Assembly (NCBI GenBank): GCA_964600785.1
Contig: CAZRKH010000091.1
Coordinates: 9,037-73,036 of the forward strand
DNA length: 64,000 nucleotides
Reading direction: 5' to 3'
DNA from: an uncultured Chitinophagaceae bacterium
GTDB lineage: Bacteria; Planctomycetota; Planctomycetia; Pirellulales; UBA1268
Made by a program: the position numbers and the translations under genes. Numbering within the stretch: the stretch's first letter is position 1; every line of letters starts with the position of its first letter. Shown in pieces: positions 43,893 to 51,534 of the stretch. The notes under the pieces are model-generated. The model was not told the DNA's origin and searched no databases. It was given only the letters and a program-made list of their open reading frames with translations.

Positions 43893-44063
43893 GGCGGAAT
43901 GCCTGCAAGGGGTGCGGGCTGTGTCGGTCATGACGACGGTGCCATGACGCTCCGCCGGTCGATACGCGGCGACGACGCGGATGGTTCACCGATGGGGTAC
44001 CCTTGCAGCGAGGGAGGCCGGCGTGGCCCGACGGCATCCCGCACGGCATCCCGGAGCGGATCA

Positions 44064-45754
44064 ATGCGGTTTTTCGTGGGCATCCTCGCGTCGCTGGCCC
44101 GCACCCGGCGGCAGCGGCGAAATCTGCGGCTGCTGGGCTGGATGGCGGGGGTCTTCATCGGGCTCTTGGCCGTCTTCAGTGTGATCTTCCACTGGCTGAT
44201 GGCCCGAGAGGGGCAGCAGCATTCCTGGGTCACGTCGGTCTATTGGACCTTCGTCACGATGTCGACGCTCGGCTTCGGCGACATCACCTTCGAGTCCGAC
44301 GCCGGGCGGCTGTTCACGATCGTCGTGCTGATCACCGGCACGATCTTCCTCCTGGTGCTGCTGCCGTTTACTTTCATTCAGTTCTTTTTCCTGCCGTGGA
44401 TGGAGGCGAGCGAGGCGGCCGGCACGCCGCGAAAGATTCCCGCCGAGGTTCGCGACCATGTCGTGCTCACTCGTCTGGGACCGGTGGAGGAGTCGCTCGT
44501 GCGGCTGCTGACCTCCGGCGGTATCGAGCACTGCCTGGTGGTCGAGGATCATGTCGAGGCCGGCCGGATACTCGATGCGGGCTACCGGGTGATGGTCGGG
44601 CCGCTCGATGATCCGGCGACCTACCGGAATGCCCGCATCTCGCAGGCGGCGTTGGTGGCCACCACGCTCGGCGACACCACCAACACCAACGTCACCTTCA
44701 CCGTCCGCGAGGTGAACGCCGCGATCCCGATCGTGGCCACCGCCGCAAGCGAAGCCACGATCGACATCCTCACGATGGCCGGCTGCACGCAGGTCCTGCA
44801 GCTGGGCCGGATGCTCGGCGAGGCGATGGCCCGGCGGCTGCTCGGCCGCGACGGCCGCAGCCGCGTGGTGGGCCGCTTCGACGACCTGCTCATCGCCGAG
44901 GCCTCCGCCAAGGCCACGCCGCTGGTGGGACGCACGCTCGGCGAGATCGGCCTCAGGCAGGCGACCGGTGCCAGCGCCGTGGGGGTCTGGTATCGCGGGC
45001 ACTTTCGGAACGCCGGCCCCGACACGCTCCTGCACGGCTCGAGCCTGTTGGTGCTTGCCGGCAGCCGCGAGCAGCTCGCCCGCTATGACGAACTCTTCGG
45101 GCTGCCTTCGAAGGCCTCTGGCCTGGCGGTGATCATCGGCGGTGGTCGGGTGGGGAGAGCCGCGGCGGCGGCCCTAGCCGCCGAGGGGCAGGACTACCGC
45201 CTGGTGGAGAAGAACGCCGCACGGATCCTCGATCCGCCCGCAGTGTCCATGGCGATGCCGCCGAGCGGGCGGTGCTCGAGGCGGCCGGCCTCGACGACTG
45301 CTCGGCGGTGATGATCACCACCCACGACGACGACACCAACATCTACCTCACGCTCTATTGCCGCAAGCTGCGGCCAGACGTGCAGATCATCGCCCGCTCC
45401 AACCGCGAGCGGAACATCGAAACCCTGCACCGTGCCGGAGCCGACTTCGTGGTCTCCTACGCGACCTTCGCCTCGACCATGATCTACAACCTGCTGCGGC
45501 GGATCGACATCCTGACGGTGGCCGAGGGGCTGCATGTCTTCCGGCTCGACACCCCGCGGGAACTCTGGGGCCGCACGCTCGCCGAGGCCGGCATCCGCCG
45601 CGGCACCGGCTGCAGCGTGATCGCGGTGGGCCGCGACGACCACTTCGATGGCAACCCCGACTCCGAAAGAAAACTCGACCCCGGCGACGACCTTGTGCTC
45701 GTGGGCGATGCCGCCGCCGAGCAGCGGTTCATGCGGCGGTATGGCCGGGGCTAG
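44064..45754 (+). pseudogene. 2TM K+ channel with two RCK (TrkA-N/TrkA-C) modules, reading frame broken near 45240
   Basis: Pore signature TMSTLGFGDI. RCK1 spans 44460-45100. RCK2 starts GLAVIIGGGRVGRAAAAAL..YRLVEKNAARILDPPA in frame 0 and continues (S)VHGDAAERAVLEAAGLDDCSAVMITTHDDDTN.. in frame -1 (track ORFs 43899..45311 and 45272..45754). Confidence 0.75.
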
Positions 45755-48747: not shown

Positions 48748-49094
48748 GTTGAAACGATTCTGGAAGCGGTGGGCTGGGAACACGCGGATGGCGGCAGGGT
48801 CGGAAGGCGGGACAGTCGAAGGGGGAGATCATTCAGCCGGCTGCCGGCTGCGGTCAGTCCAGCGGAAGGCCGCAAGCACTCCGAGCACGGCAAGCCCATC
48901 GATCATCGCACGCAGCCGCGGGGGCCTGAGTCGTCGGGCTTGGTGGTCGACCGTGCGCGAGCGGGAACCGTGTCTGAAGGTGCCTGATTTGCTTGCGGGC
49001 GACCAAACCCTACACTCTTGCAACCGGCCTGCTCGAGGGCCGAACGTTTGCACGTCCTTTATCCTTATCCCCGAGATTCCACGGAGTGACAACC

Positions 49095-49301
49095 ATGGCC
49101 GACGCAGACAGCCTTTCCTGGCCCGATCTTGCCATCGGGCTCTATGACCGCCTGACCGGGCGAAACGCCGAGATCACCTACGAGTTTGACGACATGCACA
49201 TCAAAATCCCGAGCCAGACCGGTGCGGGGGCCCAGCATGCCGAATGGGTGCTCAGTGGCACGATCAAGATTCGCACGCGAGACGCCTCGTCCCCAAACTG
49301 A
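49095..49301 (+). CDS. small protein (68 aa), 0-frame product of candidate frameshift gene
   Basis: ATG at 49095 with GGAG 9 nt upstream. Good GC3. MADADSLSWPDLAIGLYDRLTGRNAEITYEFDDMHIKIPSQTGAGAQHAEWVLSGTIKIRTRDASSPN. Confidence 0.6.
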   Translation: MADADSLSWPDLAIGLYDRLTGRNAEITYEFDDMHIKIPSQTGAGAQHAEWVLSGTIKIRTRDASSPN

Positions 49302-49346
49302 TCCCGACCGGCAGGCTCACGGGCACGCTCGATGGCCTGCCGGTCG
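49292..49346 (+). other. candidate -1 ribosomal frameshift cassette (slippery heptamer + spacer + stem-loop)
   Basis: tcC CCA AAC TGA: the X_XXY_YYZ heptamer is at 49292-49298 and the 0-frame stop at 49299-49301. A 6-nt spacer follows, then a perfect 12-bp stem CGACCGGCAGGC (49305-49316) / GCCTGCCGGTCG (49335-49346). Confidence 0.45.
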
Positions 49347-49564
49347 AAATCGTGGCTTCCGAGCGGGGTATCACGCTCTCGCTGGCGAGCGTCCGCTCGC
49401 TTGTACCGCTGTCACGGTCGGCCCGTCAGGCCGGCGGCGTGCTTGCGGTGTTGCGTCATGCGGCGATCCCGCTGGATGTCCGTCTCTTCTCAACGGTCAG
49501 CCTGCCGGTGTTGCCGCAGCCGCACTGGCTCGTGCGGCTGGTCATGCCTGGACACGCCTCCTGA
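49298..49564 (+). CDS. -1-frame continuation (88 codons) of the 49095 ORF; no convincing independent start
   Basis: The frame -1 codons ctg atc ccg acc ggc agg ctc acg ggc acg ctc gat ggc ctg ccg gtc.. have GC3 16/18, whereas the same frame upstream of 49292 has poor GC3. The only canonical in-frame starts are ATG 49244 (in the poor-GC3 part) and GTG 49352 (no SD). Confidence 0.5.
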   Translation: MIPTGRLTGTLDGLPVEIVASERGITLSLASVRSLVPLSRSARQAGGVLAVLRHAAIPLDVRLFSTVSLPVLPQPHWLVRLVMPGHAS

Positions 49565-50317
49565 GAGTGACACGCTCGCTCCCGTGGCCACCCCGACGAC
49601 CAGGCCGAAGAGCCAGCGGCTCCGTGGCCGTGTGAAGCCACCGAATCGCCAGGCCGCCAGGCCCGCGAGTCCGCCGGCAGTCAAGGCGATCACCGACTCC
49701 GCCTGGGCGATCTGCTCGACGGGCAGCCGTGATACAGACTGCCTCGCTACCCAGCCGATCGTTGCCACCGCGGGCACGGCGAGCATCGCCACCGCGGCGG
49801 CCCGCCGTCGCAGGGGCACCGCCAGCGGGCCGGGGGTCCAGCGGATCACCACGGCGATTCCCAGGCCGACCGCCGCTGCACACAGCGGGGCGGGGAGGTG
49901 CCGTGCGAGCCACTGCTGAGGTGGCAGGCCGGCCACATGCAGGCTCGCGAGGCTTGCCGCGGCCACCGCGGGAATGATTGCCGCGGTGGCCAGCCGGCTC
50001 TGCCGGGGAATGTCGAAGGCCGAGGCAAACCAGACCAATCCGAGGGCCACGGTTGCATCGAGGACCCATTGGTAGGGGGGCAGGCCGGCCATTCCGCCGC
50101 TGCCACCCACCCAGTCGAGCAGAGGCCCGACCGCCCCGCGGAGAGGATCGTCATCGGGCACGCCCACGAAGAATCCGGCAAAGACCCGCAGGCCAAAGGC
50201 GGCGAAGGGGATCAGTCCGGCGAGCAGTTCCAGCCGTCGTGGCAGCCGCGGCAACGCCGCGGCCCATATTGCCGTCCACAAAACGGTGAACAGGATCAGC
50301 CGCACGCCGGGCATCAT
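49490..50317 (-). CDS. polytopic membrane protein, unknown function
   Basis: 275 aa with 6-7 hydrophobic segments. It starts 12 nt downstream of the tRNA-Val. Its 3' end overlaps the convergent -1-frame ORF by 75 nt. Confidence 0.45.
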   Translation of the reverse strand: MMPGVRLILFTVLWTAIWAAALPRLPRRLELLAGLIPFAAFGLRVFAGFFVGVPDDDPLRGAVGPLLDWVGGSGGMAGLPPYQWVLDATVALGLVWFASAFDIPRQSRLATAAIIPAVAAASLASLHVAGLPPQQWLARHLPAPLCAAAVGLGIAVVIRWTPGPLAVPLRRRAAAVAMLAVPAVATIGWVARQSVSRLPVEQIAQAESVIALTAGGLAGLAAWRFGGFTRPRSRWLFGLVVGVATGASVSLSGGVSRHDQPHEPVRLRQHRQADR

Positions 50318-50328
50318 GAAGCCAACAG

Positions 50329-50402
50329 TGGGCGATAAAGGACTCGAACCTTTGACCCCCAGCTTGTCGAGCTGGTGCTCTAACCAACTGAGCTAATCGC
50401 CC
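50329..50402 (-). tRNA. tRNA-Val (anticodon GAC)
   Basis: Manual cloverleaf: GGGCGAT TA GCTC AGTTGGTTA GAGC A CCAGC TCGACAA GCTGG GGGTC AAAGG TTCGAGT CCTTT ATCGCCC A. No CCA is encoded. Position 33 reads C instead of the usual U. Confidence 0.9.
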
Positions 50403-51534
50403 GCAAAGCCATACCACGTGCTGGATCGTGGACGACTTGCGTGCCTGAAGTCTCGCGCACACGCTCCGCCGAGTCAAGCAGGCCGCGGGCGGTGCGGAGG
50501 GCGGCGGCTGAGCCGTCGGCGGCTCCGACGGCGATCGGCCCCCGCCACCAGGAAAGCACCCGGCCGGTGGCCGCCACCGGGAAGGTCGCCGTGAAGCCGA
50601 CGATCGCCCCACCGGCGTAGAGCGTCTGGCCGAGGGCGTGGCCGAGTTCGGCGGCAGTCGACTTCCGTCGGCCCTCGCCGCTTGGAGCGATCGCCGCCAC
50701 CCGACCGGCATCGCGGAGGTGACGCTCCTGGAAAAACCGCATTGCCGACTCGCCGGCCGTCTCCAGGAAGGTGCGGTCGGTGATGAAGCCGACCATGCCG
50801 CCCACCAGCGGAATCCTCGCGACGAGTTCGTCGGCCAGTTCGTCGGCCACGACGTCGCGTCCGGCCTGCACGGCGAGGGTGTCGGAGTCGAGTCCGCCGC
50901 CATCGGGCGCGTCGAGTGCGGCGTGCAGCCGCTCCAGGATCGCCCCCCGCTGCGGCGGCTGCTCGGTGAGACCAAGGTCGAGCAGGTCGAAGAGCATCGC
51001 CCGGTCGACCGGGCGGTCGAGCGCGTAGCCGTAGCAGTGGGCGAGCTTGGTGATCATCGTGAAGGTGGTCACCAGCTGAAACGGTAGCCGGCCCACCACG
51101 GCGCTGCCGAACTGCCGCATCACCAGGCCGCGTCCGGCGCTGATGTGTTCCGCCTCGCGGATCACCGCCATCGCCAGGCGGTCGCATTCCTCCAGCGGTG
51201 CCCGCCGCAGGGCCGGCAGGTCCCAGCCGCCGTCGGCAAGATGGGTCTTTTTCCAGGAGCTCATCCGCGTTTCGGCCAGCCGATCGATCAGGTCGATTGC
51301 CCGGCGGACGACGCTGCGGGGCACAACCCTCCGCACCGCCCAGGCGATCGGCACGGTCACGGCATCGATCGCGGCGGTGATCCGGCTCGGGCCGGTGCTT
51401 TTCCAGGCGGCGATACGGCGGACCTGCTCGGCTTCGTAGGGCGTCAGGGTCGGCTGGCTGCCGTTGCTCGAAGGGCTGCAGGCGTGGTCGGAGTTTTCGG
51501 GAGTCATGGGAGTCATGGGAGTCATGGCAGTCAT
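50380..51534 (-). CDS. EcsC-family protein
   Basis: ..LTPYEAEQVRRIAAWKSTGPSRITAAIDAVTVPIAW.. and the central ..TKLAHCYGY.. resemble the EcsC family (PF12787-type). The N-terminus MTAMTPMTPMTP is encoded by 9-bp repeats. The last 23 nt overlap the tRNA-Val gene. Confidence 0.55.
   Translation of the reverse strand: MTAMTPMTPMTPENSDHACSPSSNGSQPTLTPYEAEQVRRIAAWKSTGPSRITAAIDAVTVPIAWAVRRVVPRSVVRRAIDLIDRLAETRMSSWKKTHLADGGWDLPALRRAPLEECDRLAMAVIREAEHISAGRGLVMRQFGSAVVGRLPFQLVTTFTMITKLAHCYGYALDRPVDRAMLFDLLDLGLTEQPPQRGAILERLHAALDAPDGGGLDSDTLAVQAGRDVVADELADELVARIPLVGGMVGFITDRTFLETAGESAMRFFQERHLRDAGRVAAIAPSGEGRRKSTAAELGHALGQTLYAGGAIVGFTATFPVAATGRVLSWWRGPIAVGAADGSAAALRTARGLLDSAERVRETSGTQVVHDPARGMALRAISSVG

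What the first reader, a model, noticed from the sequence alone, without database searches (positions are those of the whole stretch)
49095..49564. Candidate programmed -1 ribosomal frameshift joining a 68-aa ORF to an 88-codon extension in a gene of unknown function
The 0-frame ORF (ATG 49095, GGAG 9 nt upstream) ends ...tcg tcC CCA AAC TGA. C_CCA_AAC (49292-49298) fits the X_XXY_YYZ simultaneous-slippage pattern in the correct phase.

It is followed directly by the 0-frame stop, then a 6-nt spacer, then a perfect 12-bp G+C-rich stem (49305-49316 pairing with 49335-49346, 18-nt loop). That is the canonical spacing for a -1 PRF stimulator.

The coding signal (third-position GC) switches from frame 0 to frame -1 exactly at the heptamer. 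It then runs 88 codons to the TGA at 49562-49564. The -1 frame has no credible start of its own.

The outcome would be two nested products of 68 aa and about 156 aa sharing an N-terminus. This is the logic of dnaX, IS3 transposases and phage G/GT chaperones. Neither half resembles those families or anything I recognise, and no phage or IS genes are nearby.

Alternative explanation: a 1-nt indel (real or assembly error) in the C4A3 run. That is not negligible, because the K+ channel gene at 45240 also has a -1 frame break without any slippery motif.
Basis: partly seen in the sequence, partly recalled or inferred. Interest (0 to 1): 0.75.

Follow-up and report, generated by a model that had tools for sequence, protein, structure and literature searches.

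The report
Conserved -1 ribosomal frameshift in Planctomycetota
A small, unannotated gene most likely uses a slippery CCCAAAC site, an adjacent stop codon and an RNA hairpin to make both a 68-residue and a 156-residue protein, and the same signal recurs in about 70 other Planctomycetota genomes, so it is a real, apparently undescribed case of programmed frameshifting in a cellular gene.

Summary

- **ORF1:** it runs from the ATG at 49095 and ends ...tcC CCA AAC TGA.
- **Hairpin:** a 12 to 13 bp G+C-rich hairpin starts 6 nt after the heptamer. Its energy is -35.4 kcal/mol, z -5.8 against shuffles.
- **-1 frame:** it stays open for 88 codons.
- **Heptamer conservation:** of 81 loci (80 related Planctomycetota loci plus the window), 69 end ORF1 with CCCAAA[C/A/G/T] followed directly by a stop. 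Two more keep the heptamer with the stop moved by 1 to 2 codons.
- **Synonymous sites:** the Pro codon is always CCA, although CCA is only 13% of Pro codons elsewhere in these genes. The preceding codon always ends in C, whichever of eight amino acids it encodes.
- **Hairpin conservation:** 60 of 67 distinct sites have a hairpin at the same position, and 66 of 67 fold better than synonymous recodings.
- **ORF2:** the -1 extension is a conserved protein. In 23 of 67 sites it has no start codon.
- **Sister lineages:** where the heptamer is missing, the same ORF2 has its own ATG or GTG start and no strong hairpin.
- **Artefact and mobile elements:** a sequencing indel is excluded, and there is no phage or IS signature.
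- **Function:** both halves match no known family or fold. About half of the loci have an NmrA/DUF2867 gene next door.
- **Status:** the held literature does not describe this case, and there is no experimental proof yet.

The parts
49083..49086 (+). Shine-Dalgarno-like GGAG, 8 nt upstream of the ORF1 start
   Evidence: Read directly in the sequence.
49095..49301 (+). ORF1 in frame 0: 68 aa (MADADSLSWPDLAIGLYDRLTGRNAEITYEF...IRTRDASSPN) plus the TGA stop. This is the short product.
   Evidence: There are 67 homologues in the 5.8-billion-protein collection, most covering only this part. Substitutions between close relatives fall 123, 80 and 729 on codon positions 1, 2 and 3.
49292..49298 (+). 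Slippery heptamer C_CCA_AAC in X_XXY_YYZ phase
   Evidence: CCCAAAN sits at this position, directly before the stop, in 69 of 81 loci: 51 end in C, 11 in A, 6 in G and 1 in T. The synonymous positions are invariant.
49299..49301 (+). Frame-0 stop codon TGA directly after the heptamer
   Evidence: All 69 heptamer-plus-stop sites have a stop here by definition: TGA 47, TAA 13, TAG 9. Two further loci that keep the heptamer have the stop 1 to 2 codons later.
49305..49346 (+). Stimulatory hairpin. The 5' arm is 49305-49317 and the 3' arm is 49334-49346 (12 Watson-Crick pairs plus one G-U). The 16-nt loop contains a small inner helix.
   Evidence: MFE -35.4 kcal/mol, z -5.77. A hairpin starts 1 to 6 nt after the stop in 60 of 67 distinct sites, and 66 of 67 fold better than synonymous recodings, mean z -1.78. 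Pairing is 82-83%, with changes on both sides in 6 of 13 and 9 of 14 pairs.
49298..49564 (+). ORF2 in the -1 frame: 88 codons (LIPTGRLTGTLDGLPVEIVASERG...PHWLVRLVMPGHAS) plus TGA. It is read only after the shift. The long product is 156 aa, with junction ...DASSPN|LIPTGR...
   Evidence: The protein is conserved across loci at 21-58% identity, with motif GRLxGxLDGRP...LRR. Substitutions fall 253, 168 and 477 on -1-frame codon positions 1, 2 and 3. The window has no ATG, GTG or TTG between the heptamer and the conserved motif.

Best explanation
This is a programmed -1 ribosomal frameshift site in a chromosomal gene of a Planctomycetota bacterium.

**Proposed mechanism (inferred).** Ribosomes translate ORF1 from the ATG at 49095. 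When CCA (Pro) is in the P site and AAC (Asn) is in the A site, the hairpin that starts 6 nt downstream sits at the mRNA entrance and hinders translocation. A fraction of ribosomes then slip one base back, with tRNA-Pro moving from CCA to CCC and tRNA-Asn from AAC to AAA.

**Products (inferred).** Ribosomes that do not slip meet the TGA at once and release the 68-aa protein. Ribosomes that slip read CTG ATC CCG ... for another 88 codons and release a 156-aa fusion with the same N-terminal domain. The site would therefore fix the ratio of a short form to a long form.

**Evolution (inferred).** Sister lineages encode ORF2 as a separate, translationally coupled gene. This suggests that ORF1 and ORF2 work together as a pair and that the frameshift replaced separate initiation.

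**What is shown.** The sequence elements are present. They are conserved at the nucleotide level. The hairpin stability exceeds what the encoded protein requires. ORF2 is a conserved coding region. Many loci lack an ORF2 start codon.

**What is not shown.** The slippage event, its efficiency, the interaction between ORF1 and ORF2, and the cellular function remain unknown. The only functional lead is frequent adjacency to an NmrA-like/DUF2867 gene.
For: 1. **Anatomy in the window** matches the canonical signal.
2. **Heptamer recurrence.** In 69 of 81 loci ORF1 ends CCCAAA[C/A/G/T] plus a stop, and 2 more keep the heptamer. Two more distant members do too.
3. **Selection at the RNA level.** The Pro codon is CCA at all 69 sites, against 13% CCA among 504 other Pro codons of these ORFs. 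The preceding codon ends in C at all 69 sites while encoding D, R, S, G, A, N, V or L. Only the seventh base (Z) varies.
4. **Hairpin position and stability.** A hairpin starts 1 to 6 nt after the stop in 60 of 67 sites. Mean energy is -24.8 kcal/mol against -18.5 for recodings that keep the protein, and 66 of 67 lie below their control mean. Pairing is 82-83% against 9-55% for slid controls, with changes on both sides in 6 of 13 and 9 of 14 pairs. One example is AGG/CTG in the window against CGN/CGG elsewhere, which changes Arg to Leu in the 3' arm.
5. **ORF2 is a real coding region.** This rests on the protein alignment, an HMM that finds it downstream of ORF1 even in loci without the heptamer, and excess substitution at the third codon position.
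6. **No conserved ORF2 start.** 23 of 67 sites, the window included, have no ATG, GTG or TTG before the conserved motif, and none has an SD-like motif there. By my count, about 22 loci have -1-frame stops just upstream of the heptamer. Only 7 proteins in the 5.8-billion-protein collection match ORF2, so gene callers rarely call it.
7. **Natural controls.** Six loci without the heptamer give ORF2 its own ATG or GTG. There the equivalent RNA folds weakly, -12.9 to -18.4 kcal/mol with z +0.9 to -1.5. The heptamer group over the same stretch has mean -24.3 and z -1.73.
8. **Known shiftiness.** C_CCA_AAG is documented as highly shift-prone in E. coli (PMC5009743).
Against: - **No direct evidence.** No peptide, ribosome-profiling or reporter data were available.
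- **Weaker A-site codon.** The commonest A-site codon, AAC, shifts less well than AAG in E. coli (own knowledge). Its efficiency in Planctomycetota is unknown.
- **Possible starts.** 44 of 67 sites have an ATG, GTG or TTG within three codons after the heptamer, and sister lineages do initiate ORF2 separately. Reinitiation could therefore contribute in some genomes.
- **Qualified covariation support.** The arms encode conserved Gly-Arg and Gly-Arg-Pro. The sequences were also split into two groups by their own predicted pairing register, which favours the test.
- **Missing hairpins.** About 7 of 67 sites lack a hairpin at the standard position.
- **Unknown function.** It is not known why a fusion would be needed.
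Confidence: 0.85

Rival explanations
1. ORF1 and ORF2 are two separate genes. ORF2 is translated by termination-reinitiation or translational coupling at a near-cognate or canonical start just after the ORF1 stop. No frameshift occurs and no fusion protein is made.
For: - In related lineages ORF2 does have its own start. Examples are TGAaATG in L056, L060, L062 and L063, a GTGA overlap in L076, L078 and L082, and an ATG 26 nt before the ORF1 stop in L085.
- The third -1-frame codon after the heptamer is NTG in 60 of 67 sites, and 44 of 67 have ATG, GTG or TTG within three codons.
Against: - It does not explain why CCCAAA, the preceding C and the CCA codon are invariant at synonymous positions.
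- It does not explain why the stop must abut the heptamer.
- 23 of 67 sites, the window included (CTG ATC CCG), have no canonical start, and 0 of 67 have an SD-like motif.
- NTG is simply what Leu, Val or Met codons look like.
- The hairpin would bury such a start. The hairpin is strong only where the heptamer is present.
Confidence: 0.09
2. The frame break is a 1-nt indel in the C4A3 run, either an assembly error or a recent pseudogenising mutation of a single-frame gene.
For: - The site is a short homopolymer junction.
- The same window has another frame break, in a K+ channel/TrkA-like gene near 45240-45310.
- One database protein, P0002, is a single-frame fusion.
Against: - The same two-frame layout with the same heptamer occurs in 69 to 71 of 81 independent assemblies from different studies and sequencing projects, including an isolate genome.
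- The 150 best hits listed (of 256) in a search of 1.84 billion representative proteins include no clean single-frame orthologue.
- P0002 differs from its conspecific locus L035 by two separate 1-nt homopolymer deletions, so it is itself the likely error.
Confidence: 0.01
3. ORF2 is not translated in this genome. The hairpin is an mRNA-stability or termination element after a 68-aa gene, and the open -1 frame is a by-product of high G+C content.
For: - The genome is about 68% G+C, so long spurious ORFs are common.
- Frame 0 also has high GC3 (0.73) in the ORF2 region.
Against: - The -1 frame is open for 70 to 98 codons even in relatives with 43-50% G+C.
- It encodes a conserved protein, and substitutions fall mostly on the third codon position.
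- No T-run follows the hairpin and no terminator-like site is found.
Confidence: 0.02

Closest known systems
E. coli copA / CopA(Z) -1 frameshift (slippery C_CCA_AAG)
   Same: It has the same XXXYYY core (CCCAAA) in a chromosomal bacterial gene, a structured RNA downstream, and two products with a shared N-terminus. C_CCA_AAG is listed as highly shift-prone in E. coli, and copA frameshifting is described in PMC5009743. Six loci of this family use exactly CCCAAAG.
   Different: In copA the shift leads almost at once to a stop, so the shifted product is the short one. Here the shifted product is the long one. The copA stimulator is reported to be a pseudoknot (own knowledge), whereas no pseudoknot signal was found here. 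There is no sequence relationship to copA (no Pfam hit).
Phage lambda-type tail assembly chaperones G/GT
   Same: The logic is identical: an abundant short protein and a rarer C-terminally extended fusion made by a -1 shift near the end of the first ORF, with the shared N-terminal domain thought to allow co-assembly (own knowledge).
   Different: There is no phage context. PHROGs gives no hit and 2.9 million viral contigs contain no relative. The gene is chromosomal and conserved across a phylum. The heptamer and protein families differ. Here the stop directly abuts the heptamer and a strong hairpin follows.
IS3/IS911-family transposase OrfA/OrfAB frameshift
   Same: A -1 shift near the end of the upstream ORF fuses it to a downstream ORF that lacks its own efficient start, and a downstream stem-loop stimulates the shift (own knowledge).
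   Different: There are no transposase domains and no terminal inverted repeats. The gene has a stable chromosomal position, often next to an NmrA/DUF2867 gene. The heptamer is C_CCA_AAN rather than A_AAA_AAG. No conserved upstream SD-like stimulator is present: an AGGA-type motif in 20 of 62 sites, arising from Lys/Gln/Glu-Asp codons.
dnaX tau/gamma frameshift
   Same: It is a cellular bacterial gene in which a -1 shift at a heptamer followed by a stem-loop yields two products in a set ratio (own knowledge; PMC5009743).
   Different: In dnaX the shift truncates the protein, whereas here it extends it. dnaX uses A_AAA_AAG plus an upstream SD. The proteins are unrelated.

Membership tests
Canonical -1 programmed ribosomal frameshift cassette | X_XXY_YYZ heptamer in the phase of the upstream ORF | tested here: met
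   C_CCA_AAC at 49292-49298 is in phase with the ATG at 49095. In-phase CCCAAAN occurs in 71 of 81 loci.
Canonical -1 programmed ribosomal frameshift cassette | Heptamer conserved at the nucleotide level, including synonymous positions | tested here: met
   CCA is used at 69 of 69 sites against 13% elsewhere in these ORFs. The preceding codon's third base is C at 69 of 69 sites across 8 amino acids, against 35% C at third positions overall. Caveat: the 69 sites were selected for carrying CCCAAA, so the fair statement is 69 of 81 loci.
Canonical -1 programmed ribosomal frameshift cassette | Stable RNA structure 5 to 9 nt downstream of the heptamer | tested here: met
   In the window the spacer is 6 nt and the energy is -35.4 kcal/mol, z -5.77. 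The stem starts 4 to 9 nt after the heptamer in 60 of 67 sites, and 66 of 67 are more stable than synonymous recodings.
Canonical -1 programmed ribosomal frameshift cassette | Structure kept by compensatory substitutions | tested here: met
   There are two pairing registers. Pairing is 83% and 82% of cells, against 9-55% in slid controls. Changes on both sides occur in 6 of 13 and 9 of 14 pairs. The covariation score was reached by 0 of 500 and 2 of 500 shuffles. Caveat: the groups were chosen by predicted register, and the arms encode conserved residues.
Canonical -1 programmed ribosomal frameshift cassette | Downstream ORF in the -1 frame is a conserved coding region without a conserved start of its own | tested here: met
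   ORF2 alignment and HMM. Codon-position bias of substitutions is 253, 168 and 477. 23 of 67 sites have no start and 0 of 67 have an SD-like motif.
Canonical -1 programmed ribosomal frameshift cassette | Trans-frame protein actually produced | not testable with these tools
   This needs proteomics, ribosome profiling or a reporter assay.
Phage tail assembly chaperone G/GT | Homology to tail chaperones and a position between the major tail and tape-measure genes in a phage or prophage | tested here: not met
   PHROGs gives no hit for either half. Viral contigs hold no relative. The window neighbours are an unannotated 833-aa ORF, a 275-aa ORF with no Pfam hit (its sequence reads as hydrophobic), tRNA-Val and an EcsC-family protein.
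IS3/IS1-type transposase frameshift | Transposase (HTH/DDE) domains and terminal inverted repeats | tested here: not met
   No Pfam or NCBIfam hits. No flanking terminal inverted repeats beyond chance G+C-rich matches.
dnaX or copA recoding genes | Homology of the protein to DnaX or to CopA/HMA domains | tested here: not met
   No Pfam, NCBIfam or PDB sequence hit. Foldseek found no significant match (best E 0.3 for the fusion, 0.03 for ORF2).

The most novel reading that the evidence does not exclude
The site may be more than a fixed-ratio device. It could be an ancient, phylum-wide regulatory switch in which the fraction of ribosomes entering ORF2 responds to cell state, through the hairpin, tRNA modification or release-factor availability at the abutting stop. 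That would tune the stoichiometry of a two-protein module working with the neighbouring NmrA-like/DUF2867 (redox or NAD(P)-sensing type) protein. Lineages that reverted to separate initiation would be natural experiments in exchanging recoding for ordinary coupling.
Probability: 0.12. Interest if true: 0.85.

Novelty: new member of a known kind. Interest (0 to 1): 0.68.

Why it matters
- **Rarity.** Conserved -1 frameshifting in ordinary chromosomal bacterial genes is known for only a handful of cases, such as dnaX and copA. Most examples are in phages and insertion sequences.
- **What this adds.** This would add a case that is old enough to be shared by Planctomycetia and Phycisphaerae and that sits in a protein family with no annotation.
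- **Built-in controls.** Sister lineages express the same downstream ORF from its own start and have lost both heptamer and hairpin. That makes the evolution of recoding directly testable.
- **Annotation.** ORF2 is missed or mis-started by gene callers in nearly all genomes: only 7 matching proteins exist in a 5.8-billion-protein collection.
- **Model system.** It gives a defined, short signal (heptamer, abutting stop, simple hairpin) for studying frameshifting in a phylum whose translation is poorly studied.

Tried and rejected
- **Family and structure searches.** Pfam, NCBIfam, PADLOC, PHROGs and PDB sequence searches of both halves and of divergent relatives found nothing significant. The AlphaFold2 model of the fusion had pLDDT 69.7 and pTM 0.59, and the ORF2 model had pLDDT 77.7. 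Foldseek against PDB and viral structures gave no meaningful match: best E 0.3 and 0.04 for the fusion and 0.03 for ORF2 (AcrVA5, TM 0.36). Function could not be assigned.
- **Rfam.** No known frameshift element or other RNA family lies over 49000-49700.
- **Pseudoknot.** The window has a 6-nt complement between the loop and downstream sequence. Across 59 sites, however, the longest such match averages 4.34 nt against 4.24 nt for shuffles, so there is no conserved pseudoknot.
- **Single consensus structure.** RNAalifold on all 67 sites gave almost nothing (-0.89 kcal/mol), because the stem uses two pairing registers. Splitting the sites by register resolved this.
- **Upstream SD-like stimulator, as in dnaX.** It is present in only 20 of 62 sites and is explained by Lys/Gln/Glu-Asp codons.
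- **Intrinsic terminator or promoter.** None was found.
- **IS-type inverted repeats.** None was found.
- **Literature.** Searches for CCCAAAC with frameshift, and for frameshifting with Planctomycetes or Planctomycetota, found no description of this case.
- **NmrA/DUF2867 neighbour in the window.** It is absent.

Full report
**1. The observation**

The sequence is as described. GGAG lies at 49083-49086 and ATG at 49095. ORF1 has 68 codons ending tcC CCA AAC TGA. The heptamer C_CCA_AAC is at 49292-49298 and the stop at 49299-49301.

Positions 49305-49316 pair perfectly with 49335-49346. The -1 frame is open from 49298 to the TGA at 49562-49564, which is 88 codons.

The RNA from 49299 to 49352 folds to -35.4 kcal/mol, against -17.6 +/- 3.1 for dinucleotide shuffles. 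That is z -5.77, with 0 of 200 shuffles as stable.

Three small corrections apply.
- The 6-nt spacer between heptamer and stem includes the stop codon.
- An ATG exists in the -1 frame at 49244. It arises from the conserved Glu-Trp codons and has no convincing SD.
- The GC3 switch is real but modest. GC3 is 0.78 for frame 0 in ORF1 and 0.82 for frame -1 in ORF2, but frame 0 still reaches 0.73 in the ORF2 region.

**2. Homologues**

A search with the conceptual 156-aa fusion found 67 proteins. Most are 85-105 aa and cover only the ORF1 part. Many of them end in ...Pro-Asn or ...Pro-Lys. Among database homologues of standard length, 37 of 79 end in PN or PK.

A scan of one genome per GTDB species found at least 467 relatives. 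The best 80 loci were fetched. Nearly all are Planctomycetota:
- Pirellulales, Planctomycetaceae and Isosphaeraceae;
- Phycisphaerales;
- the isolate Aeoliella straminimaris.

**3. Conservation of the site**

Of 81 loci, counting the window, 69 end ORF1 with CCCAAAN followed directly by a stop.
- The seventh base is C in 51, A in 11, G in 6 and T in 1.
- The stop is TGA in 47, TAA in 13 and TAG in 9.
- The -1 frame stays open for about 70 to 98 further codons.
- L013 and L020 keep the in-phase heptamer with the stop moved by 1 to 2 codons.
- Two more distant members fetched separately, L087 and L088, also have C_CCA_AAC, a stop and a hairpin.

The conservation is at the RNA level.
- The Pro codon is always CCA, although CCA is only 13% of the other Pro codons in these ORFs.
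- The preceding codon always ends in C while encoding eight different amino acids.
- Only the seventh base, the one a slippery site allows to vary, changes.

The loci range from 43% to 72% G+C.

**4. The hairpin**

The 67 distinct sites align without gaps.
- Folded individually, 60 of 67 have their main helix starting 1 to 6 nt after the stop.
- Mean energy is -24.8 kcal/mol, against -18.5 for recodings that keep the -1-frame protein.
- 66 of 67 lie below their control mean. Mean z is -1.78, and z is -3.83 for the window.

The helix uses two pairing registers, so a single consensus fold fails. Within each register group:
- 83% and 82% of cells pair, against 9-55% when partners are slid;
- 6 of 13 and 9 of 14 pairs show changes on both sides.

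One example is the window's AGG/CTG against CGN/CGG elsewhere. This changes Arg to Leu in the 3' arm while keeping the pair.

Two caveats apply. The groups were defined by predicted register, and the arms encode conserved Gly-Arg and Gly-Arg-Pro.

There is no conserved pseudoknot, no Rfam match and no terminator.

**5. ORF2 is a real coding region without a conserved start**

- The -1 extensions align as a protein with motif GRLxGxLDGRP...LRR, at 21-58% identity to the window.
- Between close relatives, substitutions fall 253, 168 and 477 on -1-frame codon positions 1, 2 and 3. For ORF1 in frame 0 the figures are 123, 80 and 729.
- Between the heptamer and the conserved motif, 23 of 67 sites have no ATG, GTG or TTG. 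The window (CTG ATC CCG) is one of them. None has an SD-like motif.
- By my count from the 'up' column, about 22 loci have a -1-frame stop within a few codons upstream of the heptamer.
- Only 7 proteins in the 5.8-billion-protein collection match ORF2.
- The 150 best hits listed (of 256 at E <= 0.001) in a search of 1.84 billion representative proteins include no clean single-frame fusion.
- P0002, the one apparent fusion, differs from its conspecific locus L035 by two homopolymer deletions. It is probably a sequencing error.

**6. Natural controls**

An HMM of ORF2 finds it downstream of ORF1 even where the heptamer is missing. In those lineages ORF2 has its own start:
- TGAaATG in the +1 frame in L056, L060, L062 and L063;
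- a GTGA overlap in the -1 frame in L076, L078 and L082;
- an ATG 26 nt before the ORF1 stop in L085.

In the six such loci among the 80, the RNA that encodes the equivalent residues folds weakly. Energies are -12.9 to -18.4 kcal/mol and z is +0.9 to -1.5. The heptamer group over the same stretch has mean -24.3 and z -1.73.

So the heptamer, the abutting stop and the hairpin occur together, and all are absent where ORF2 can be initiated normally.

**7. Mechanism**

The best explanation is canonical simultaneous-slippage -1 frameshifting at C_CCA_AAN. The slip occurs with the heptamer in the P and A sites, stimulated by the hairpin 6 to 7 nt downstream. It yields a 68-aa product and a 156-aa product.

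C_CCA_AAG is documented as highly shift-prone in E. coli (PMC5009743).

The role of the invariably adjacent stop is inferred. It either merely defines the short product or adds to the shift by slowing decoding.

Rival explanations are:
- reinitiation without a frameshift, about 0.09;
- an untranslated ORF2, about 0.02;
- an indel or assembly artefact, about 0.01.

Conservation of the heptamer at synonymous positions counts against the first. Protein conservation and codon-position bias count against the second. Recurrence in about 70 independent assemblies counts against the third.

**8. Function**

Neither half matches Pfam, NCBIfam, PADLOC, PHROGs or PDB sequences.

The AlphaFold2 models are of moderate confidence. 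The fusion has pLDDT 69.7. ORF1 is predicted as a helix plus a long beta-hairpin. ORF2 is a small alpha/beta domain with pLDDT 77.7. They have no significant structural neighbours.

The family has no relatives in viral contigs and shows no IS features.

The only contextual lead is an NmrA-like/NAD_binding_10 + DUF2867 gene.
- It lies directly downstream on the same strand in 36 of 71 loci with enough sequence.
- It is nearby in several others, including distant lineages.
- It is absent from this window.

**9. Comparison and novelty**

The product logic (short form plus extended fusion) matches phage G/GT and IS3 OrfA/OrfAB. The heptamer core matches E. coli copA. The protein belongs to none of those families.

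Searches of the held literature found no description of this case. The GeneTack survey included only two Planctomycetes genomes.

I classify it as a new member of a known kind. The mechanism is canonical. The gene family, its phylum-wide age and its natural non-frameshifting controls are new. Experimental confirmation is still needed.

Noticed in passing
window 43899-45754 (+): A K+ channel/TrkA-like gene is split into two overlapping ORFs, 43899-45311 and 45272-45754, with the frame break near 45240-45310. No slippery motif was examined. It may be a real pseudogene or an assembly indel.
   Followed up: partly
L045:3500-6115, L082:3749-5110, L088:3066-4616, L085:3873-4993 and others: An NmrA-like/NAD_binding_10 + DUF2867 gene lies directly downstream of the ORF1-ORF2 pair in 36 of 71 loci. 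It is divergent upstream in 7 more, and it is split into DUF2867 and SDR genes in a distant lineage. It is not present in the window.
   Followed up: partly
L012 and L013 (same MAG, JBGSRO01): One genome has two copies of the module. L012 is canonical. L013 keeps CCCAAAC but has TGA changed to TGC, so the stop lies 2 codons later. One search reports only about 45 open -1-frame codons there, counted from the displaced stop. It may be a decaying paralogue.
   Followed up: no
L076 and L078, ORF1 end: ORF1 ends GAT TTG GGC ACG TGA. This contains an in-phase T_TTG_GGC and a GTGA start/stop overlap leading into ORF2 in the -1 frame. It is unclear whether this is coupling or a different shift site.
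   Followed up: no
L081:3250-3610: In this distant relative ORF2 lies in the +1 frame with no start codon nearby. The residues 'SPN' appear in the +1 frame just where ORF1 stops. This may be an indel in the assembly or a different recoding event.
   Followed up: no
window 49307-49320 and 49496-49509: The 5' arm of the hairpin is also 93% complementary (14 nt) to a stretch 175 nt downstream inside ORF2, which is a near copy of the 3' arm (GCCTGCCGGT). This may be an alternative pairing or chance in G+C-rich sequence.
   Followed up: no
window 49490-49564: The last 25 codons of ORF2 overlap, on the opposite strand, the 3' end of a convergent 275-aa ORF (49490-50317) that has no Pfam hit and a hydrophobic-looking sequence.
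   Followed up: no
P0002 versus L035:968-1039: The only apparent single-frame ORF1-ORF2 fusion in the databases differs from its conspecific genome by two 1-nt deletions in homopolymer runs (A4 to A3, CC to C). It is most likely a sequencing error.
   Followed up: partly
window 50328-50402 (-) and 50380-51534 (-): A tRNA-Val(GAC) gene and an EcsC-family protein lie just downstream of the locus. The listed 384-aa EcsC ORF overlaps the tRNA by about 20 nt, so its true stop or start may differ.
   Followed up: no
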